This document shows, one piece after another, positions 4,942 to 61,837 of a DNA stretch of 64,000 nt. Origin of the DNA: Eledone cirrhosa (taxonomy: Eukaryota). Under the pieces are notes generated by a model. The model saw nothing but the letters and a program-made list of their open reading frames with translations. It was not told the origin of the DNA and did not search any database. How positions within the stretch are numbered: position 1 is the stretch's first letter; every line of letters begins with the position of its first letter. The stretch is from assembly GCA_964016885.1 (NCBI GenBank), contig OZ024755.1, positions 10,354,001 through 10,418,000 of the forward strand, read 5' to 3'. The translations under genes were made by a program, and so were the position numbers.

Positions 4942-5821
<880 letters not shown>

Positions 5822-9925: not shown

Positions 9926-10287
9926 ATATCGGACAACAACTTCAACGCATTAGAAACAATTTCGCTCCTTCCAATGCACCAAGGAAAACCCATTCTAGAG
10001 AACTTTTCAATAGTAAAAACAACCACGCGATGCACCCAGGGGACATTTTAAGGTTTAACTCAAATCATGTCTGATCCAAGTAGGAATCAGCCAAGATATT
10101 TGGGAGGAGATGTCTGAAAATCGTAAAGTTGCAAATGCTTTTGAAAACCAAAGAACATCCCGTGATAATCAACAACGCAGTGAAGGAGGTGAATATGAAC
10201 GAACGACGCTCTCAGCTTAGAATCTTGTGAAACATGTCAACAACAGCTATTCCACAGTCAATGCTCGCAATTAAAATAACAGATGAA

Positions 10288-10338
10288 AGTTTAAGCAAAG
10301 AGTCGTTGCTTTCACCCTTAACGGGATCTTCTGAAACT
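10288..10338 (-). ncRNA. Hammerhead-like motif (family B) with variant core
   Basis: Minus strand reads AGTTT-CAGAAGA-T-CCC(GTTAA)GGG-T-GAA-AGCAA(CGACTCT)TTGCT-T-AAACT. All three stems pair, with a U4-to-A change and a CUU site. Confidence 0.5.
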
Positions 10339-10410
10339 AAAAAAAATCTATCTGTGGACGCAGACGTAAATATTTCAAAAAACGATTTTAGTCTTCACAT
10401 TTATTATTAT

Positions 10411-10469
<59 letters not shown>

Positions 10470-10477
<8 letters not shown>

Positions 10478-10596
10478 TAACAGATTAAAGTTTAAGCAAA
10501 GAATCGCTGCTTTCACCCTTAACGGGATCTTCTGAAGATCCCGTTAAGGGTGAAAGCAGCGATTCTTTGCTTAAACTTTAATCTGTTATTTTAATA
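10470..10596. repeat. Perfect palindrome (63-bp arms, 1-nt centre) of the family B element
   Basis: Arms are exact reverse complements around T10533, directly after (TA)n. The plus strand shows a CTGAAGA...GAAA core. Confidence 0.9.
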
Positions 10597-10684
10597 AATA
10601 TTTGCTCTACGGTTCATATATATTTGATATATATTTATCCTTATCGAGCCCTCTTTGGATTTTAGTCTTCAAATTTATTATTAT

Positions 10685-10750
<66 letters not shown>

Positions 10751-10941: not shown

Positions 10942-11230
10942 CATATACATATATATATATAAGCATAACACAGCAGTCGCCCCTGACACAGTTTGAATTC
11001 ATCTCCCTGGTGACAACTGTTAGGTCCAGTGTACAATAGACCACACACTATGTAAATTTTGTACTTAACAATACCAGGTCTCATTCTACCGTACATACAA
11101 ACATACATCCATGCATACATACACCCATACATACATACACACATACACACATACATGCACGCATACATACATACGATCACAGATGCTGATGTCAGCATAT
11201 CTACACTCTAATTCACATATACTATAATTC

Positions 11231-11330
<100 letters not shown>

Positions 11331-12076
11331 TAAACATGCCTATATATATATACATATATGTATATATGAAATCATGGAATTATACATAGCTGATATTTCG
11401 GTATAAAATGTTCTACAAGTTTAACATTGCCTAATAATTGACTTCGACCATACATAGCTAATATTACGGCATAAAATACCTTACTCTCAGCTTGGCAATG
11501 ATAATAGGTCTTCAGATATTTTTATGGTTTCGCTCTGTCGTCATATTTATCGTCAAGTCATGATACTTTCGTGAGAATATAAATTTCAAACAGGTTTCCT
11601 TCTGTGTAAATATGTGATCTGAGGCACAAGATTCCTTTTTTGGTGTAGAGCGAGAATCACGTGGAAATCTTCAACTACCGCGATGTAATAATTGTGATGT
11701 CTCTGATATGACGTCACCAACTTGTCTGACGCCACGACTGTGATAAATCTTATGCTTCTGAAGTTATTATAATTGGTGACTCTGATTTCGGTGGTTTAAT
11801 ATCTGTGATGTAATAACTGTGATTAATGTGATTCTGATATTATGACTGATTATTGTTTTGTAATGACTGTCATTACTCTGTTGTAATGACTAAGATATAA
11901 TTCCGTGATGACATAACTTCAACCCTTCTCCATTTATGGATCTTTGTCTGGTACTACGAATACACGTAGCTTAATTTAGATATTTGGAATAAATTTAATA
12001 AGAAATCCTTCTACAATTTATAGCACTTACGTATAGACACATATATATATATGTGGGGTGGGGTATATACAGTATA

Positions 12077-12130
<54 letters not shown>

Positions 12131-12211
12131 GTTTATCCCAGGTTCAATCGGGTAACCACCGTAAGTAAGGTACTCAATACATAGCAGAGTATAAATATTT
12201 AATATAGAAAT

Positions 12212-12260
12212 GGCTTCTACAGGACTAGAACTGTTTCATTCGGGAGAAATCATCAGGAAG
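12212..12260 (-). ncRNA. Minimal type I hammerhead ribozyme (inverted copy)
   Basis: Minus strand reads CTTC-CTGATGA-TTTCTCCCGAAT-GAA-ACAG-TTCTAGTC-CTGT-A-GAAG(CC). Confidence 0.7.
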
Positions 12261-12392
12261 ATGTAGAAGCCATTTCTATATCAAATATTTATGCTTTGCT
12301 ATGTATTGAGTACCTTACTTACTGTGGTTACCCCCGATTGAACCCGAGATAAACTTATCTTTTAGCACTTTACCGTGTCCCTCTTAACCATA

Positions 12393-12443
12393 GGCTTCCT
12401 GATGATTTCTCCCGAATGAAACAGTTCTAGTGCTGTAGAAGCC
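12393..12443 (+). ncRNA. Minimal type I hammerhead ribozyme
   Basis: Stem I GGCTTC/GAAGCC, core CTGATGA, stem II T-TTC(TCCC)GAA-T, GAA, stem III ACAG(TTCTAGTG)CTGT. Predicted cleavage at GUA after 12437. Confidence 0.75.
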
Positions 12444-12501
<58 letters not shown>

Positions 12502-13664
12502 GGCTTCTACAGGACTAGAACTGTTTCATTCGGGAGAAATCATGTATGGACTTACATATATGTAAAGACCTATATATATATATATATATATATATAGGTT
12601 TTTACATATATGTAAGTCCATACGTACATACATACTATTACTACAGCCGTCATTTGCAATTGTGTATGAATTGGTAGTATATACCTTACTTTCGCTAAGG
12701 AATTTAAATGTCTATGTACTCGCAAACAGACATAGTCCCCATCTCGATTCTTCCTTCTTCCCTCCTTTAAATCCAGCGGAAAATCTAAGATGTCCCAGCT
12801 GAAAGGAAAGACACAAACCCTGGGCTGGTACGTTCTTTATCGACCTCGAAAGGATGAAACGTAAAGTGAACCACGGCAGGATTTAAACACAGAACGCAAA
12901 GATTCGAAACACATACATACATATACATATATTTTTAGTAGCATACGTTTTACGAGACACGCTAGGCTCTGGATGCCATGTGCGTTATTTTATATACGTA
13001 CACCATTCAGTCTTCTGAGATACTTAGAAGTTAAGGGTTTACTAATTCCACACCCACTGAAGAGCAATAGAATTGGCAATTCCCATTCACTAAATTGCGA
13101 AACAGCATTACCAAAAGCTGTCTGGGTGTTTAATAGTTGTCACAATTTCGGTTTGTATTTTTTTCTTAATTTATTCTTTTAAATTGAGTCTGGCAAATCC
13201 TATTGTTCATAGTTAGTATTTTTTTCACCCTGGCGAATCTGGTCCCTTACGATTTGAACAAATATATGTATATATCTGTGTGTTATCTCTCTTTTATATT
13301 CAATTATATTACATATATATATTAACCTTGTGCTGTAGATATATGTTGGAATAAAAATAACAATGGGTTAACAATTGATTGGGTGACTCCATGCATGAAG
13401 TAAATCTTTGTTTGGATGAATAAACCATTGGGTAGGCGAATTGTGTAAGTGTATTATACGTATCTTGGTTGACTGGTGAGTTACGTATAACACACACACA
13501 CACATATATATATATGTATAGGTAAAGACGACACAAAAAGACAAGGGAACAAACAGTTAAAACGTCAATGTTCAAAACAAATTGAAGAAAAAAATGTAAA
13601 AGAAGATTCGTGGTCGACAAAATATATGCACAAAAAAAACATGAACAATATAAGTATAGTAGAA

Positions 13665-13725
13665 ATATTTACGTCGAATAGAAAGTGAAGCCATCTGACG
13701 TTTCGGGTTATACCCGTTATCAAAG
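13665..13725 (-). mobile_element. Degenerate hammerhead-like motif (family D-like)
   Basis: Minus strand reads TTGATAA-C-GGG(TATAA)CCC-GAA-ACGTC...GACGT-A. A similar decayed motif lies at about 14061-14090. Confidence 0.4.
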
Positions 13726-13892
13726 TAGAGTAAGGGAAGAAAAGAGAAGAAAAAATAAGAAAAAGTGTTGTAACGATACCAAGTTTGAGAGCAGATGTGA
13801 TTCAAATGGGTATATCATATTATATTATATATAAGTGTTTGTCTGAAAAACATTTTGGAGAAAAAGCACGTCTGTATTTAGTTCGCCATTTT

Positions 13893-13977
<85 letters not shown>

Positions 13978-14329
13978 TCAAGCTGAAAAAGACTATCACT
14001 AAAAACAATTACATAAAGTCTTATTACTCTCATGCTTGTAGGAAACGAAAAATGTATGCCTTAACGTATCGGACATCAGTCTTTCATCAAAAAGAGAAAG
14101 AGGAGGTTAGAAGGTTTCAGGAAAGAGAGAAAAAAAATCATTTATCAGGATAGACCTACTTGTTTGTATATGTGTGTATATGACTTAGATACATATCGTG
14201 GTTCAGAAAACAATATGTGTGTTTCTTTGTTTCGAACCAATGATAATATTTTGTTTTCAATATACTAGAAAAAAATAAAATTGCAGAAATGCCGAGAATG
14301 TTTTATTAGAGAAAAAATGATGTTCGACA

Positions 14330-18507: not shown

Positions 18508-18660
18508 CAGAACTGTTTCATTCAAAGGGCTTTCCTGATGGTTTCCCTTGAACGAAACAGTTCTAGTCCTGTAGAAGCCATTTCTATATTAAATTTGATG
18601 TTTAGGGTATTGAGTTTCTTACTTACTGTGGTTACCCCCGATCGATTAAACCAGGGACTC

Positions 18661-18717
<57 letters not shown>

Positions 18718-18775
18718 ATATAGAAATGGCTTCCCCCATGGTTACCCCCGATTGAACCCGGGATAAACTTATATC
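18508..18775 (+). mobile_element. Family A hammerhead element, second copy (core CTGATGG, probably inactive)
   Basis: GAAACAGTTCTAGTCCTGTAGAAGCCATTTCTATAT...GTGGTTACCCCCGAT is shared with the 12.2-12.4 kb copy. Interrupted by (TA)n. Confidence 0.65.
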
Positions 18776-21715: not shown

Positions 21716-22187
21716 GAAGAAGAGAAGCTGTCATGTCCTTGACTCAACTAAAGGTTCCTCCCAACCCTTTTTTTTTTGCATCTTTCTATGTCAGGATGCT
21801 ATTCCTATCACCAACACTAGAGAGGTTAGTAGGCATGTGGGTTAGATGGTAGGGTATTCAGCACATGATCATAGAGTCATAAGTTCATTCCTTGGACCAG
21901 TGCAATAATTACTTGAGCAAGACACTTTATTTCACATAGCTCAGTTAGCAAAAATTAGTTGTACCTGTAATTCAAGGGGTCAGCCTTGTCATATATTGTG
22001 TCACCCTGAATCTCTCTGAGAAGTATGTTAAGGATACATGTGTCTGTGGAATGCTCAGCCACTTGCACATTAATTTCATGAGCAGGCTGTCCCAATAAAT
22101 CACCTGGGGCACTTGTCGGAAACACTGGTCCAACTACAACACATGCACATATATATATGTGTGTGTAGGTTTCTGAGTGGTGTCAGA

Positions 22188-22320
22188 GGTACTCAATACA
22201 TTGGTAGAATATAGGAATCTTTATTATATATAGAAATGATTTCTACAGGATCAGAACTGCTTCCTTCGTATACGAATGAGGCAATTTTGGTCCTATGGAA
22301 GTCATTTCTATATATAATAA

Positions 22321-35062: not shown

Positions 35063-36859
35063 TCACCACTCTTGTAATAAGTAATCAACTGTATTAGCGT
35101 CTCGTTTAGTGTTCGAAAAAATCCTCCACGCAGTCTCACTTTTCTCTTTCACTCGTTCTCGATCAACCCCAGTTTTTGCTCAACCCACGAACAACTACTG
35201 CACCTCTCTCTTTCTCTCTCTGCATTCCTTTACAGTCCATTTTTAACCACTCCTCATCTACAAGCCCACTACAATTCTATTAAATAAAAACAAACCTCAC
35301 CCACTTAATCCTTCTATAAATCAGTTTCTCAACCATTTTTGTCCTACGTTCAAATATAGGTTAGTTGGTCCCTCCTTAGATTAACTTATACTTTGTTTCT
35401 TAAGGACTAGTCTCATCAGACCTCCCTCTATCATGGTGTCCTTTACTGTGGTAATTAAGGTAACCGTTTTACAGCCGAGCGATTGTTTTCTGGGGCTAAA
35501 TATACAAATTGAACAAATGTTGGAGTCCAGTACTTCATCTTCACTGGTTTTGTCAAGTCTCTCTTTATCCTTTCGCTTTCTTTAATGAACCCTGTAACTC
35601 CTTAGATAATTTGCGAGCAACCCCTAAAACCTTTTCATGTAATATATTAGATGTCATCAATCTGACAGATCCCATTTCTCTCTAAACTATAACGCTAGGA
35701 ACCTACAGTAAGTTCTAGTGATCCACCCTATTTTTCCACCCCGCTAAGTGGTACTGAAGCCATTCTAATATTTGTTTTTTCTTACATGGAATTGCTGTGA
35801 GTGGAGGGGTGATGGTGTATCTAGGTCACAGCTCTAATTACATGCAGTTATGATGTGCCCTAGTATGCAACAAGTTTCAAGCAAGCTCAAAAATATTTGG
35901 CTGTTGTTTTCAGTCAAAACCCAGTTTTTGTTAGTGGTTCCATTGCTAGAATATTCAGTGTGTTGTCAAGAAAGGTAAAAGTTGATAGATTTGAGGGAGA
36001 CGTTTAGAAGAAAAAAATCCTCCAAATGTAAATTGCGTTTAGGAGGGCTAATTAATTTAAGTAATTAACTCTATGGTGTTACTCCAAAATGCAAGCGTGG
36101 CTGGACTTGGTAAACCGACACATTTCTCTTGCATGTCCAGAAACTTGTATCTAATATTAACTATGATATCCATAGTCTATGTAACTAGGGTTCAGTTTCT
36201 AAACGCTTTCCTTTATCGTAAATTTGGGGAAGAAATAGGTATCTAATTGCACGCGGAACTAAAAATAAAATTTAGACTTTTGCATGATTAGCTGGCTCTC
36301 TACGAGGTTGAATCTCATAGGTGAGGTTTTTTTCTTTCATGGTGTTACAACGATAGGGACCCTGGCTCTATCATGAGAAGTAACGTGAAATGGTGTCTTG
36401 AATTGTGAGCGAGAGACTTGACAAAAGCATTACGATAAATTATTGAATCTCACTGGGCCCCGCACGTACTCTGGATTTTATAGGCAAGGTTCCACATATG
36501 GAGTCTGCCAGATTCTAGACATGCAGATGTCTTTAAGATACCTAAATGTAGTTAAAGGAAGGGTTGGAAATGACTTGGTTTTGCAAGAGAAATTAACACA
36601 AGCTCATAAGGCTATTATTAAAGAGGACTAACACACCACCGAATGTGTTGGGTCTCCGTCGCTTTCGACGACGGGTTTCAGTTCTTCGAATAACAGGGCA
36701 TCCTATTCGTGAAATTAACATGCACGTGACTGAGCATTCCTGAGACATGCGTACTCTTAAAGTAGTTCTCAGGGAAATCCAGTGTAATATAATGGGTGAC
36801 ACGGCTGAATTAAAGGTACAACTCATGCCAGCTAATGGATTTACCCTAGTTTTAATTAT

Positions 36860-41438: not shown

Positions 41439-41517
41439 AACTCAATACATTAAGAAGGTGCATAAATCACTTCTACATGAGTATAACGGTTTCATTCGCT
41501 TGAATTGATCCGGAAAT
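41439..41517 (-). mobile_element. Family A element, highly degenerate intronic remnant
   Basis: ACTCAATACAT...CTTCTACA...GTTTCATTCG matches family A order and spacing. Confidence 0.4.
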
Positions 41518-57646: not shown

Positions 57647-57831
57647 CGTTTGTTGTTGTTGATGCAATATAAATTATATTGAACTTATTCTTTTATGCAT
57701 GGGGTCCACAAAAGTATCTTATTTTAGTATGGAAAATAGCCTTAAAATACTGATTGTTGTTGTTGTTGTTGTTGTTGTAGATGCAATATAAATTAGTTAT
57801 TATTACACTGTACTTTTTCTTTTTCCTCCAG

Positions 57832-58315
57832 GACACATCTCTTACTAGAAGGACTTGAAGATGCTTGCCTTCTTGAAGATGAATCAGATGACAGATTAAC
57901 AGACAAACATGGCTGTCCTGCTTATGTGAGCCCTGAAATTCTCAGTACGGCAACTGAAAGTTACTCTGGCAAAGCAGCAGACATCTGGAGCCTTGGCGTC
58001 ATGTTATACACCATGATAATCGGCCGTTACCCTTTCCATGATACTGAGCCCAGTGCTTTGTTCGGCAAGATCCGTCGAGGGCAGTATTCACTGCCAGACA
58101 TTCTTTCATCAGGTGCCAAATGTCTAATTCGTAACATGTTACGGCGCGATCCTACTCAAAGACTTACTGCCAATGTTTCTCTATTACATCCGTGGCTTGC
58201 TGGCCACTGGCCTAGTAGTTCGGTTAGCCAGACATGTGTTGATCGAAGACAGACAACAGATCAGACCGTCCCAAATATCAAATTAACAGAATTAAAAGAT
58301 GATTTATTTGACTGA
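57832..58315 (+). CDS. TRIB2: Tribbles pseudokinase, coding exon 3 (to stop)
   Basis: Polypyrimidine tract and ccAG|G complete the Lys codon. Encodes EGLEDA...DKHGCPAYVSPEIL...SGKAADIWSLGVMLYTMIIGRYPFHD, the LLHPW motif and the COP1-binding-like DQTVP. TGA ends at 58315. Confidence 0.95.
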
Positions 58316-60030: not shown

Positions 60031-61837
60031 ATTTAGAAAAAAAAAAAAATTTCCCCGTATATTATCACATTGTGGCTGATATTTCTCTACATTACTATTG
60101 TCTGTGACGGTTCTAAGTGATAAGGATCCCTACTAACTGGCTTTACTATTCTCTTGGGAGGGAGTCCGTCCACAATGCTCTCTGTTCCTTTGCCTGCTAA
60201 TTTAGCTGGTGATTTTTGCATTTGTCTTTCTCATCTCACCTTGACCTTGCCTCATCTCACCTCAATGCCTATACATAGTTTCGAATGGTGGGTCTTCAGA
60301 ATAAAGTCAGAAACAGATCATTTCAGTGACAAAATAAAGGACCATACATACACTTACACTTGCACTCATATACACACACTCACTCATTCTCACATACACA
60401 CACTCATCTATTCTTGGGGGAATTATTTGTTCTGTTTTATTGATCGTAACCCCTCTTATTCACTTCAATCACATACTTACATACATACATACATACACAC
60501 TTCCTCTTCTCTCATCCACTTTGCACACGCTCATACACTTTTTCCTCCCCTCTCTCCATCCATTGCAAATTCTTTTTTGTATATTTTGATAATCAGCTTC
60601 AGTTGAAAGACATCGATGTGGCAACTCCTCATTCTCTCCTTCATTTATGGGGTTTGTTTGGAGGTGGGGTCATACCTAAGTAAAGTATCAGTTCTATAAT
60701 GGGGGTCGATCCTTCTTCTATACCTATTTCTCTGGAAGAAATCTGCTGCATTCCAACCAAGAGAGGGATGGGCTCCACTAGATCTAATGGCCAAAGACAG
60801 CTATATATCTATATCTTGCAATGACACACGCCTATACCAGGAGTTAAAGGCCCACGGCATGGATCTGACATCATTTTTTAAGCCAAACGCCACTCCTTCA
60901 TCTATCTATCTATCTATCCTAGACTCATCTCTCAATAGTTAGTCTTTTGTGGATCTTTAACTGCTTTAATGTGGAGATGTGTGGCTTAGTGGTTAGGTTA
61001 TGAGTTCGATTCCTTCCTGTACCAGGCAGCACGTTTCCTTTAGAAAGAAGCTTTGTTGCGTTGCTCCAGCGGTCTGATGATTTATCATTTTCTTCTGTAT
61101 TAACGATATCGAAAGCTCTAATAACAGAACAAAATGATGTTGACCGCCCCTCGTTCCTCCATACCAGGATATGACGAGGCCGTCTCTCAGTCCTCCACTC
61201 CAGGATATAACAAGGCCACCTCTTGTTTCGCTAGACAAATTGTACTTTTATATCTTTAGATTTATTGTTAGCTTTATAGTCAAACATCACTGAGCATATA
61301 TATATATATGTTAGTCAGACATGCATACACATAGCTAGTAATCTACAATGTATGAGCCTGTGTTTACTCTAGACTAATTCTGTCTTGCAGTCATTTTTCA
61401 CATAATCCTCTGGAAAGATATCAATTTCATCAGATATTTTCTACTTGTAATCAGCATAACTTTGCTGAAACAAGACTTTTTTTCATTCAGAAACATATGT
61501 GGAATCAGTGTTATTGAAAAGTGTATCCAACTGTAAAAACTGTTCTAATTTACACATAACCCTGCCTCGTACATTCCTTCTCTTATGAGTAATACAAAAT
61601 TGCAATTAAAACGATAGAATCTCTGATGGCTTATTTCTGCTGACCAACTTTATTTTTTCTCCTGCAACTGTATTTAAACTCTTGATAACTTATTCAACAG
61701 CAACGGCAAGCGTTTTAGGGCTATCTTCCTTGCTAAAGCAGGGGTTAGTTTTGCGGGGTTCATGACGAGCTTCATGTCCATCATGGGATTCTTTTGGGGG
61801 TAATGTTTTACGGTCGGACGTTCTTCCTAACATTAAC

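What the first reader, a model, noticed from the sequence alone, without database searches (positions are those of the whole stretch)
12127..12543. Hammerhead-ribozyme element with a 172-nt cleavage-to-cleavage unit (candidate cephalopod retrozyme or Penelope pLTR)
Seen: a complete minimal type I hammerhead on + (12393-12443) and another on - (12212-12260). The site GTA|GAAGCC occurs twice on + (after 12265 and 12437), which defines a 172-nt non-coding unit. The upstream site lacks its own core on + here because the inverted arm replaces it. Known: Penelope-like elements carry minimal hammerheads in direct and inverted pLTRs, and metazoan non-LTR retrozymes are short hammerhead tandem repeats that form circRNAs. 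Inferred: this is a non-autonomous self-cleaving retroelement whose tandem copies could release a 172-nt monomer or circle.
Basis: partly seen in the sequence, partly recalled or inferred. Interest (0 to 1): 0.85.

Follow-up and report, generated by a model that had tools for sequence, protein, structure and literature searches.

The report
Dead Penelope-element 5′ ends with hammerhead
This stretch is a patchwork of four short, likely dead pieces from the front end of a Penelope-type jumping gene that carries a hammerhead-ribozyme motif, and the ends of its many sister copies suggest that the element's RNA likely starts, capped, at the ribozyme's first base and is likely copied into DNA uncut.

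Summary
The + strand hammerhead (12393-12443) is real; the - copy has only a 4-bp stem I. The 172-nt 'unit' is not a repeating monomer. The same sequence lies just upstream of an intact 713-aa RT + GIY-YIG ORF with Hydra-clade Penelope-like (PLE) motifs, in ~5-kb elements with a hammerhead at each end. The locus is four pieces of that element's 5′ end, inverted and direct, inside (TA)n. The family has 28,618 hammerhead-pattern matches (control 3), mostly dispersed. The exact junction that defines the 172-nt unit occurs 13 times, with 9 different linkers. Copy ends are sharply placed: 5′ ends at the first base of stem I, 30 nt below a conserved TATA box, usually with an extra G (cap signature, inferred); 3′ ends near +28 and +93 from the cleavage site; no peak at the cleavage site. 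Best reading: dead reverse-transcription by-products of capped, uncleaved PLE RNA, joined by template jumps; not a retrozyme. Self-cleavage and expression are untested (no usable RNA data). New member of a known kind, with a testable mechanistic signature.

The parts
12084..12126 (.). (TA)n tract at the left end, the inferred insertion target
   Evidence: (TA)n preference of Hydra PLEs in PMC8557442 section 11
12127..12260 (-). Inverted arm: PLE 5′ piece from -43 to +93 relative to the cleavage site; ends at the common +93 end
   Evidence: 134 aligned, 5 mismatches to natural copy L100
12212..12260 (-). Truncated hammerhead in the inverted arm (full core, only 4 bp of stem I)
12262..12391 (+). 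Direct piece A: -4 to about +125; the 5′UTR that in full elements runs on into the ORF start 136 nt after the cleavage site; carries the core-less upstream GTA|GAAGCC site
12392..12393 (+). Junction between piece A and piece B (inferred template jump); the linker differs among genomic copies
12393..12447 (+). Direct piece B: from the first base of stem I (inferred transcription start) to +10; holds the complete type I hammerhead 12393-12443, predicted cleavage after 12437
12448..12498 (.). Internal (TA)n tract joined to the 3′ ends of piece B and of the right arm
12499..12543 (-). Right inverted piece, -36 to +9 (lacks stem I 5′ arm and the start of the core); forms a 71-bp hairpin with 12402-12472

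Best explanation
The locus consists of four short pieces of the 5′ end (hammerhead plus 5′UTR) of a Hydra-clade Penelope-like retrotransposon, set in inverted and direct orientation in (TA)n, and is likely a dead by-product of that element's reverse transcription rather than a self-propagating unit. Shown: the same sequence precedes a 713-aa RT-GIY-YIG ORF and recurs at the far end of ~5-kb elements; short copies start mostly at the first base of stem I, 30 nt below a TATA box, often with an extra G; they end mostly near +28 or +93; almost none start at the cleavage site. Inferred: Pol II starts at the hammerhead's first base; the element's protein nicks (TA)n and primes reverse transcription at internal sites only 70-170 nt from the cap; the cDNA runs through the uncleaved ribozyme to the cap and gains a C opposite it; cDNAs from the two target ends are joined head to head (the inverted arms), or the enzyme jumps to a second RNA near +125 (the 172-nt spacing). 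Copies made this way lack the TATA box. Full-length transposition would need read-through to the downstream pLTR, whose ends fall at the same +22 to +28 and +93 sites.
For: Parent: L020, L029, L030 continue from +125 into ORF remnants; 4 of 7 extended loci (L061-L064) hold an intact ORF with RIRWR, DKT, YRDD, CxCX5C, IVY..YIG, CxxC, CxH, as defined for Hydra in PMC8557442; 3 of 3 downstream stretches fetched hold a second TATA-hammerhead ending in (TA)n. The U.U pair at the base of stem II is shared with many Hydra hammerheads in that paper's file S2. Ends: of 157 pieces in 89 hammerhead-anchored loci, 47 start at -45 (76 at -45 to -42), 52 end at +28, 40 at +93; in 30 loci anchored downstream of the cleavage site, 11 start at -45, 1 at -1, none at the site. 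TATA lies 29-31 nt upstream in 37 of 41 native-upstream copies across subfamilies. Extra G: 60 of 87 (TA)n-joined loci where the parent has C (hand count, first 100 of 143 rows; 48 of 71 after dropping 16 that could be inverted-arm remnants); 19 of 42 in a subfamily whose first base is A (hand count, first 100 of 562 rows); control G 0 of 15 at other truncation points against 4 of 4 at the start. Extra G as a cap mark in L1 insertions: PMC11702581 passage. Internal RT initiation, extension of both target strands and use of unprocessed RNA by a PLE in vitro: PMC11167929. Inverted piece within 70 nt upstream in 51 of 91 copies.
Against: No RNA evidence for the start site, cap or cleavage (contigs only). 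The extra G could be untemplated addition at any RNA end, and many head-to-head joints are ambiguous through microhomology. In the A-start subfamily 23 of 42 loci lack the G and 31 further loci start one base later. The +28 peak is blurred because that stretch resembles the (TA)n target. 15 of the 24 copies that reach +122 jump to the hammerhead start, so the 172-type joint is a preferred product. 9 of 30 sampled copies lacking A at -1 start exactly at the cleavage site (about 1-2% of 1,869, several explained by stem I microhomology). No intact ORF of the window's own subfamily was found; the intact ones belong to a younger sister subfamily. The ~5-kb unit is longer than the <3 kb given for Hydra. 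No tree with reference PLEs was built.
Confidence: 0.85

Rival explanations
1. The 172-nt unit is a non-LTR retrozyme: a non-autonomous pLTR derivative released by two hammerheads, circularised and re-inserted by the PLE protein.
For: 15 of 24 copies reaching +122 are joined to a hammerhead start; a few loci have two same-strand cores 157-176 nt apart; bioRxiv 10.64898/2026.07.22.740005 argues that animal retrozymes derive from pLTRs.
Against: 13 exact junctions with 9 linkers, 9 of them ending in the extra G; junction copies share no derived variant beyond the family majority; at most 3 same-strand cores per locus in 286 loci; the two best dimers (L004, L006) have damaged cores or sites (by eye); no pile-up of ends at the cleavage site; this locus has one complete + core.
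Confidence: 0.07
2. The acceptor of the jump is a distinct short (~170-nt) capped transcript that ends near +123 to +130, sometimes with a few added A; end-to-end jumping between such RNAs, not a second internal RT start, makes the 172-nt spacing. This modifies the best explanation and could be how retrozymes are born.
For: Ends at +123 to +130 are joined to a hammerhead start (15 of 24) and almost never to flank (1 of 24); several linkers hold A runs of 2-6.
Against: The 33-37 nt between +93 and these ends match the 30-40-bp PLE 'tail' between two RT starts in an AC-rich stretch (PMC11167929), and this stretch is AC-rich; no RNA data.
Confidence: 0.3
3. The boundary at stem I is a splice acceptor or a structural stall, not a transcription start.
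For: Several subfamilies read pyrimidines + CAG there; in D. virilis Penelope an intron ends at helix I (PMC4209133).
Against: Copies keep the AG and gain G before it; no constant upstream exon is seen at the joints; the window's subfamily has CGG; TATA spacing is kept across subfamilies with different spacers.
Confidence: 0.1
4. This particular copy has been co-opted as a functional ribozyme or hairpin RNA of the host.
For: The + core is intact and the locus would fold into long hairpins.
Against: It is one of tens of thousands; its pieces carry private changes (8 of 97 in piece A); no TATA box upstream; no gene context found.
Confidence: 0.03

Closest known systems
[quoted passage not shown] 2021, PMC8557442; e.g. 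Penelope-n_HM, Hydra-1_Obim, Hydra-1_Ajap)
   Same: ~700-aa ORF with C-terminal GIY-YIG, RW(K/R), DKT, CxCX5C, CxxC/CxH; hammerhead in the pLTR, often with U.U at the base of stem II and a 4-bp stem III; (TA)n targets; partial tandems with inverted 5′-truncated copies.
   Different: A family not listed in that paper's Hydra table (its one cephalopod family has another hammerhead); ~5-kb unit with a long simple-repeat 3′UTR; 8-nt loop III with a CTAG centre; about 28,600 hammerhead matches; TATA/start/extra-G signature not described in the passages read.
Poseidon PAc of Anolis (Frangieh et al. 2024, PMC11167929)
   Same: Internal RT initiation about 85-92 nt after the cleavage site, tail between two starts, both target strands extended, uncleaved RNA as template, AT-rich targets.
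   Different: In PAc the ORF starts inside the hammerhead; here it starts 136 nt after the cleavage site. An extra end class near +28; 5′ ends of copies were not analysed there in the parts read.
Penelope of Drosophila virilis (PMC2377424 passages; PMC4209133)
   Same: Promoter in the pLTR, hammerhead close to the RNA's 5′ end.
   Different: There a TATA-less internal promoter and an intron before helix I; here an upstream TATA box and an inferred start at stem I itself.
Metazoan non-LTR retrozymes (PMC7229834; bioRxiv 10.64898/2026.07.22.740005)
   Same: Short non-coding type I hammerhead sequence of pLTR origin, similar size.
   Different: No arrays, no fixed monomer, joint not at the cleavage site, no circRNA evidence.

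Membership tests
Hydra-clade PLE (parent element) | Single ORF with RT and C-terminal GIY-YIG endonuclease | tested here: met
   713 aa, YRDD at 347, IVY 585 / YIG 602; Pfam weak on the query (GIY-YIG E 0.067); 1 of 28 aligned relatives each hits RVT_1 and GIY-YIG at about 1e-5
Hydra-clade PLE (parent element) | RWK motif and DKT instead of DKG | tested here: met
   RIRWR at 36 (R for K), DKT at 116
Hydra-clade PLE (parent element) | CxCX5C linker instead of CX2-5CxxC; CxxC and CxH around the conserved E and N; no CCHH | tested here: met
   CxCX5C at 566, no CX2-5CxxC, CxxC at 666 and 691, CxH at 694; two cysteines lie inside the GIY-YIG core but 9 apart, and the second is absent in L065
Hydra-clade PLE (parent element) | Hammerhead in pLTR at both ends; insertion in (TA)n | tested here: met
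Hydra-clade PLE (parent element) | Generally short (<3 kb) | tested here: not met
   unit about 5.0-5.4 kb through a long simple-repeat 3′UTR; ORF length is typical; a descriptive trait, not a diagnostic one
Hydra-clade PLE (parent element) | Phylogenetic placement with reference Hydra RTs | not tested
   Reference proteins were only read in the paper's supplement and compared by eye: motif order matches Hydra-1_Obim, -Amil, -Ajap
Type I hammerhead ribozyme | Core CUGANGA / GAAA / NUH with three helices | tested here: met
   U10.1-U11.1 variant is known from natural hammerheads (PMC3088659 passage)
Type I hammerhead ribozyme | Covariation and conserved core across lineages | tested here: met
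   11 hand-picked copies from several subfamilies: 95% of cells paired, 2 stem I pairs with two-sided changes, slid controls 29-46%; loop II varies while stem II stays. The core was fixed by the search pattern, the copies are related, and 3 have a bulged stem I
Type I hammerhead ribozyme | Self-cleavage | not testable with these tools
   no assay; no genomic pile-up at the cleavage site
Non-LTR retrozyme | Tandem repeat with a complete hammerhead in at least two consecutive units | tested here: not met
   window has one complete + core; 17 of 286 fetched loci (some redundant) have 2-3 same-strand 3′ half-cores, each spacing seen once
Non-LTR retrozyme | Fixed monomer propagated as its own lineage | tested here: not met
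   9 linkers among 13 junctions; no shared derived variants
Non-LTR retrozyme | Accumulates as circular RNA | tested here: inconclusive
   no raw RNA reads offered; two RNA runs held one 226-nt contig each

The most novel reading that the evidence does not exclude
In this PLE the capped mRNA begins at the first nucleotide of the hammerhead, so the ribozyme is a 5′-terminal cap-removing switch: uncleaved RNA is the reverse-transcription template, while cleavage drops the cap and three of four upstream AUGs and sends the RNA to cap-independent translation or decay. The ~28,600 genomic copies are a fossil map of the start site, cap and RT start sites in vivo, and rare jumps at +125 are retrozymes being born.
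Probability: 0.35. Interest if true: 0.7.

Novelty: new member of a known kind. Interest (0 to 1): 0.42.

Why it matters
The locus itself is ordinary repeat debris. The family matters because the role of PLE hammerheads and the origin of PLE inverted/tandem structures are stated as open in PMC8557442. Here the copy ends give base-level, in vivo predictions (start site, cap, RT starts, uncleaved template), and intact young elements exist to test them. It also warns that two hammerhead sites 170 nt apart need not mean a retrozyme.

Tried and rejected
Rfam scan of 11000-14000: 61 matches at E<=1, none a hammerhead, none at gathering score. No PLE ORF remnant in the window or 10 kb each side (tblastn). 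Naiad was my first guess for the ORF; rejected because Naiads have an N-terminal endonuclease and no canonical hammerhead. RNA evidence: 6 runs found, all contigs; 2 RNA runs with small share gave one 226-nt contig; no start, end or circle can be read. Contig depth in a run of unknown type is far higher over the hammerhead to +93 than over the ORF or +95 to +125; not used as a copy number. Metagenome scan with the ORF: 171 pattern hits, none confirmed. 1,404 unnamed homologues of about 700 aa at E<=1e-20, no useful names. PDB profile search: nothing significant. No structure model was obtained, so the fold is unconfirmed. Earlier-findings look-ups returned nothing. The tandem-spacing count used a faulty pattern (0 hits) and was redone; 3 of the 25 'junction' rows are false picks and 1 is a native continuation. 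A cis fold in which the + core cuts the upstream site (6-bp stem I, 3-bp stem III) is possible on paper but that site is predicted inside the duplex with the left arm. Literature searches for a published TATA/cap/extra-G signature in PLEs or for this family listed none; most subscription papers are not in the library, and the work on dimeric PLE hammerheads that I recall (Lunse et al. 2017) was not seen.

Full report
Positions written +n / -n count from the predicted cleavage site; the first base of stem I is -45.

1. Observation. The + hammerhead at 12393-12443 is there, with a 6-bp stem I, the full core, a U.U pair and 3 bp in stem II, and a 4-bp stem III. In a partition-function fold stems I and III have pair probabilities of 0.83-1.0, stem II 0.10-0.14. 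The two + sites are 172 nt apart and the upstream one has no core. The - copy starts at -43 and has only 4 bp of stem I. A fourth piece (12499-12543, -) pairs with the + hammerhead over 71 bp. Folded whole, either strand of the locus is two long hairpins; on + they bury both + sites. Rfam has no hammerhead hit here.

2. The family. The genome (3.0 Gb, 1,796 contigs) gave 2,296 first-look candidates for the unit, 729 exact matches to a 36-mer of the hammerhead, 1,740 to a 17-mer and 28,618 to a relaxed pattern, against 3 for the control. Listed matches are dispersed, many as head-to-head pairs a few bases apart.

3. The parent. In L020, L029 and L030 the 125 nt after the cleavage site run on into ORF remnants. 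A search with that DNA (380 candidates) led to a young subfamily; 4 of 7 extended loci have an intact 713-aa ORF. Its motifs fit the Hydra clade as defined in PMC8557442 (section 11 read; passages; supplement parts 1, 2, 52, 53 and a motif search). Many Hydra hammerheads in file S2 share the U.U pair. The elements are about 5.0-5.4 kb and in 3 of 3 cases checked end in a second TATA-hammerhead followed by (TA)n near +22 or at +93. ORF remnants next to window-type leaders are broken and 57-83% identical to the intact protein by segment. Stem I covaries between subfamilies (GGCTTC/GAAGCC 27 copies, AGATTC/GAATCT 17, among 157; pair counts), and loop II varies while stem II stays. So the hammerhead looks selected in the active lineages; that says nothing on this copy.

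4. Where copies begin and end. In 89 loci picked by the hammerhead alone, 26 of 91 copies keep the native upstream sequence (21 with a TATA box), 65 are joined to something else, and 51 have an inverted piece within 70 nt upstream. Of 157 pieces, 47 start at -45, 52 end at +28 and 40 at +93; this sample cannot show starts inside the anchor, so I took 30 loci anchored after the cleavage site: 11 start at -45, 7 at -44 to -40, 11 are scattered from -36 to -1, 1 is native. Only 73 of 1,869 exact matches lack the A before the site; 9 of 30 of those start at the site, several through stem I microhomology. That is about 1-2% of copies, near the per-base background. In native copies the TATA box begins 29-31 nt before stem I in 37 of 41. 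At (TA)n joints the base before stem I is G in 60 of 87 loci, A 12, T 12, C 3, where the parent has C (hand count of the first 100 of 143 rows). In the subfamily starting with A it is G 19, T 10, C 9, A 4 of 42; 31 more start one base later (first 100 of 562 rows). At other truncation points G was 0 of 15. An extra G marks the cap in full-length L1 insertions (PMC11702581, passages). I infer a capped Pol II start at stem I base 1. By eye, the two Apostichopus Hydra consensus sequences show a TATA-like or initiator-like motif in a similar place and others do not clearly; this is a lead only.

5. The 172-nt unit. The exact joint occurs 13 times with 9 linkers; 9 of 13 end in G. Of 24 copies that reach +122, 15 jump to a hammerhead start, 8 continue into the ORF start, 1 meets flank. 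Junction copies share no derived variant that the background lacks. Same-strand cores number at most 3 per locus in 286 loci, each spacing seen once. The joint is thus a preferred but rare product made repeatedly, at the inferred RNA start and not at the cleavage site. The 33-37 nt from +93 to the joint match the PLE tail between two RT starts (PMC11167929, parts 1-2 of 4 read); an RNA 3′ end there is the alternative.

6. Mechanism. Shown: parentage, architecture, end positions, extra G, TATA spacing, covariation. Inferred: capped start, priming at internal sites on nicked (TA)n, copying of uncleaved RNA, head-to-head joining and template jumps. For the window: the left arm (+93 end) and pieces B then A (+10 end, jump at the start to about +125, stop at -4) form one inverted insertion; the right arm is a further cDNA primed from the other strand of the internal (TA)n. 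None of the pieces has the TATA box, so the locus is likely silent unless read through. What the ribozyme does for the element is open. Its position would let it remove the cap and three upstream AUGs, and 5′UTR hammerhead cleavage can drive cap-independent translation in RNA viruses (PMC13725137, passages); this is a hypothesis.

7. Known versus new. Hammerheads in pLTRs, inverted truncated copies and solitary motifs are known (PMC4209133, parts 1-2 of 4), as is the pLTR origin of retrozymes (bioRxiv 10.64898/2026.07.22.740005, parts 1-3 of 5; its supplements are closed; PMC7229834 passages). D. virilis Penelope has a TATA-less internal promoter (PMC2377424 passages). A 2026 octopus repeat annotation does not mention hammerheads or Hydra (PMC13282606 passages and supplement search). 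This family may be in repeat libraries I could not search. The start/cap signature was not found in my searches.

8. Verdict. Real hammerhead, PLE pLTR debris, not a retrozyme. New member of a known kind; interest 0.42, carried by the testable end signature rather than by this locus.

Noticed in passing
window 18523-18772: Another composite of the same family: hammerhead 18532-18583 with an extra G at its start and a bulged stem I, plus inverted and truncated pieces around (TA)n.
   Followed up: partly
window 22187-22319 (-) and 41464-41515 (-); L069 6016-6184: Older, decayed pieces of the same or a related family.
   Followed up: no
window 4942-4966 (+), 35395-35419 (-), 60278-60299 (-): Three unrelated hammerhead-core-like motifs (CTGANGA...GAAAC), two with a palindromic ACTAGT loop II; possibly other PLE families.
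   Followed up: no
window 12544-12626: A ~41-bp inverted repeat around (TA)n directly abutting the right arm; may be a fold-back formed during the same insertion.
   Followed up: no
L061 3650-6001, L062, L063: The young elements carry a ~2.5-kb 3′UTR made largely of (TA)/(TG)-rich simple repeats; it begins with a decayed look-alike of the pLTR region. They may spread microsatellites, including their own target.
   Followed up: partly
element +27 to +47 (window 12292-12312): A small hairpin with a TT bulge (..CTC..TTGAG..) that by eye also follows the hammerhead in Hydra-2_Amil and Hydra-1_Amil of PMC8557442 file S7; candidate protein-binding site.
   Followed up: no
window 57797-58315 (+): Stop-to-stop frame with a protein kinase C-lobe match (Pfam Pkinase E 3.8e-19).
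   Followed up: no
window 10270-10335 and 10471-10536; 10384-10472 and 10658-10746: Short direct repeats (95-97%) of another (TA)n-associated repeat that also flanks some family loci (L008, L009, L022).
   Followed up: no
L014 2053-3180 (+): A LINE (RTE-like) reverse-transcriptase frame next to a family insertion.
   Followed up: no
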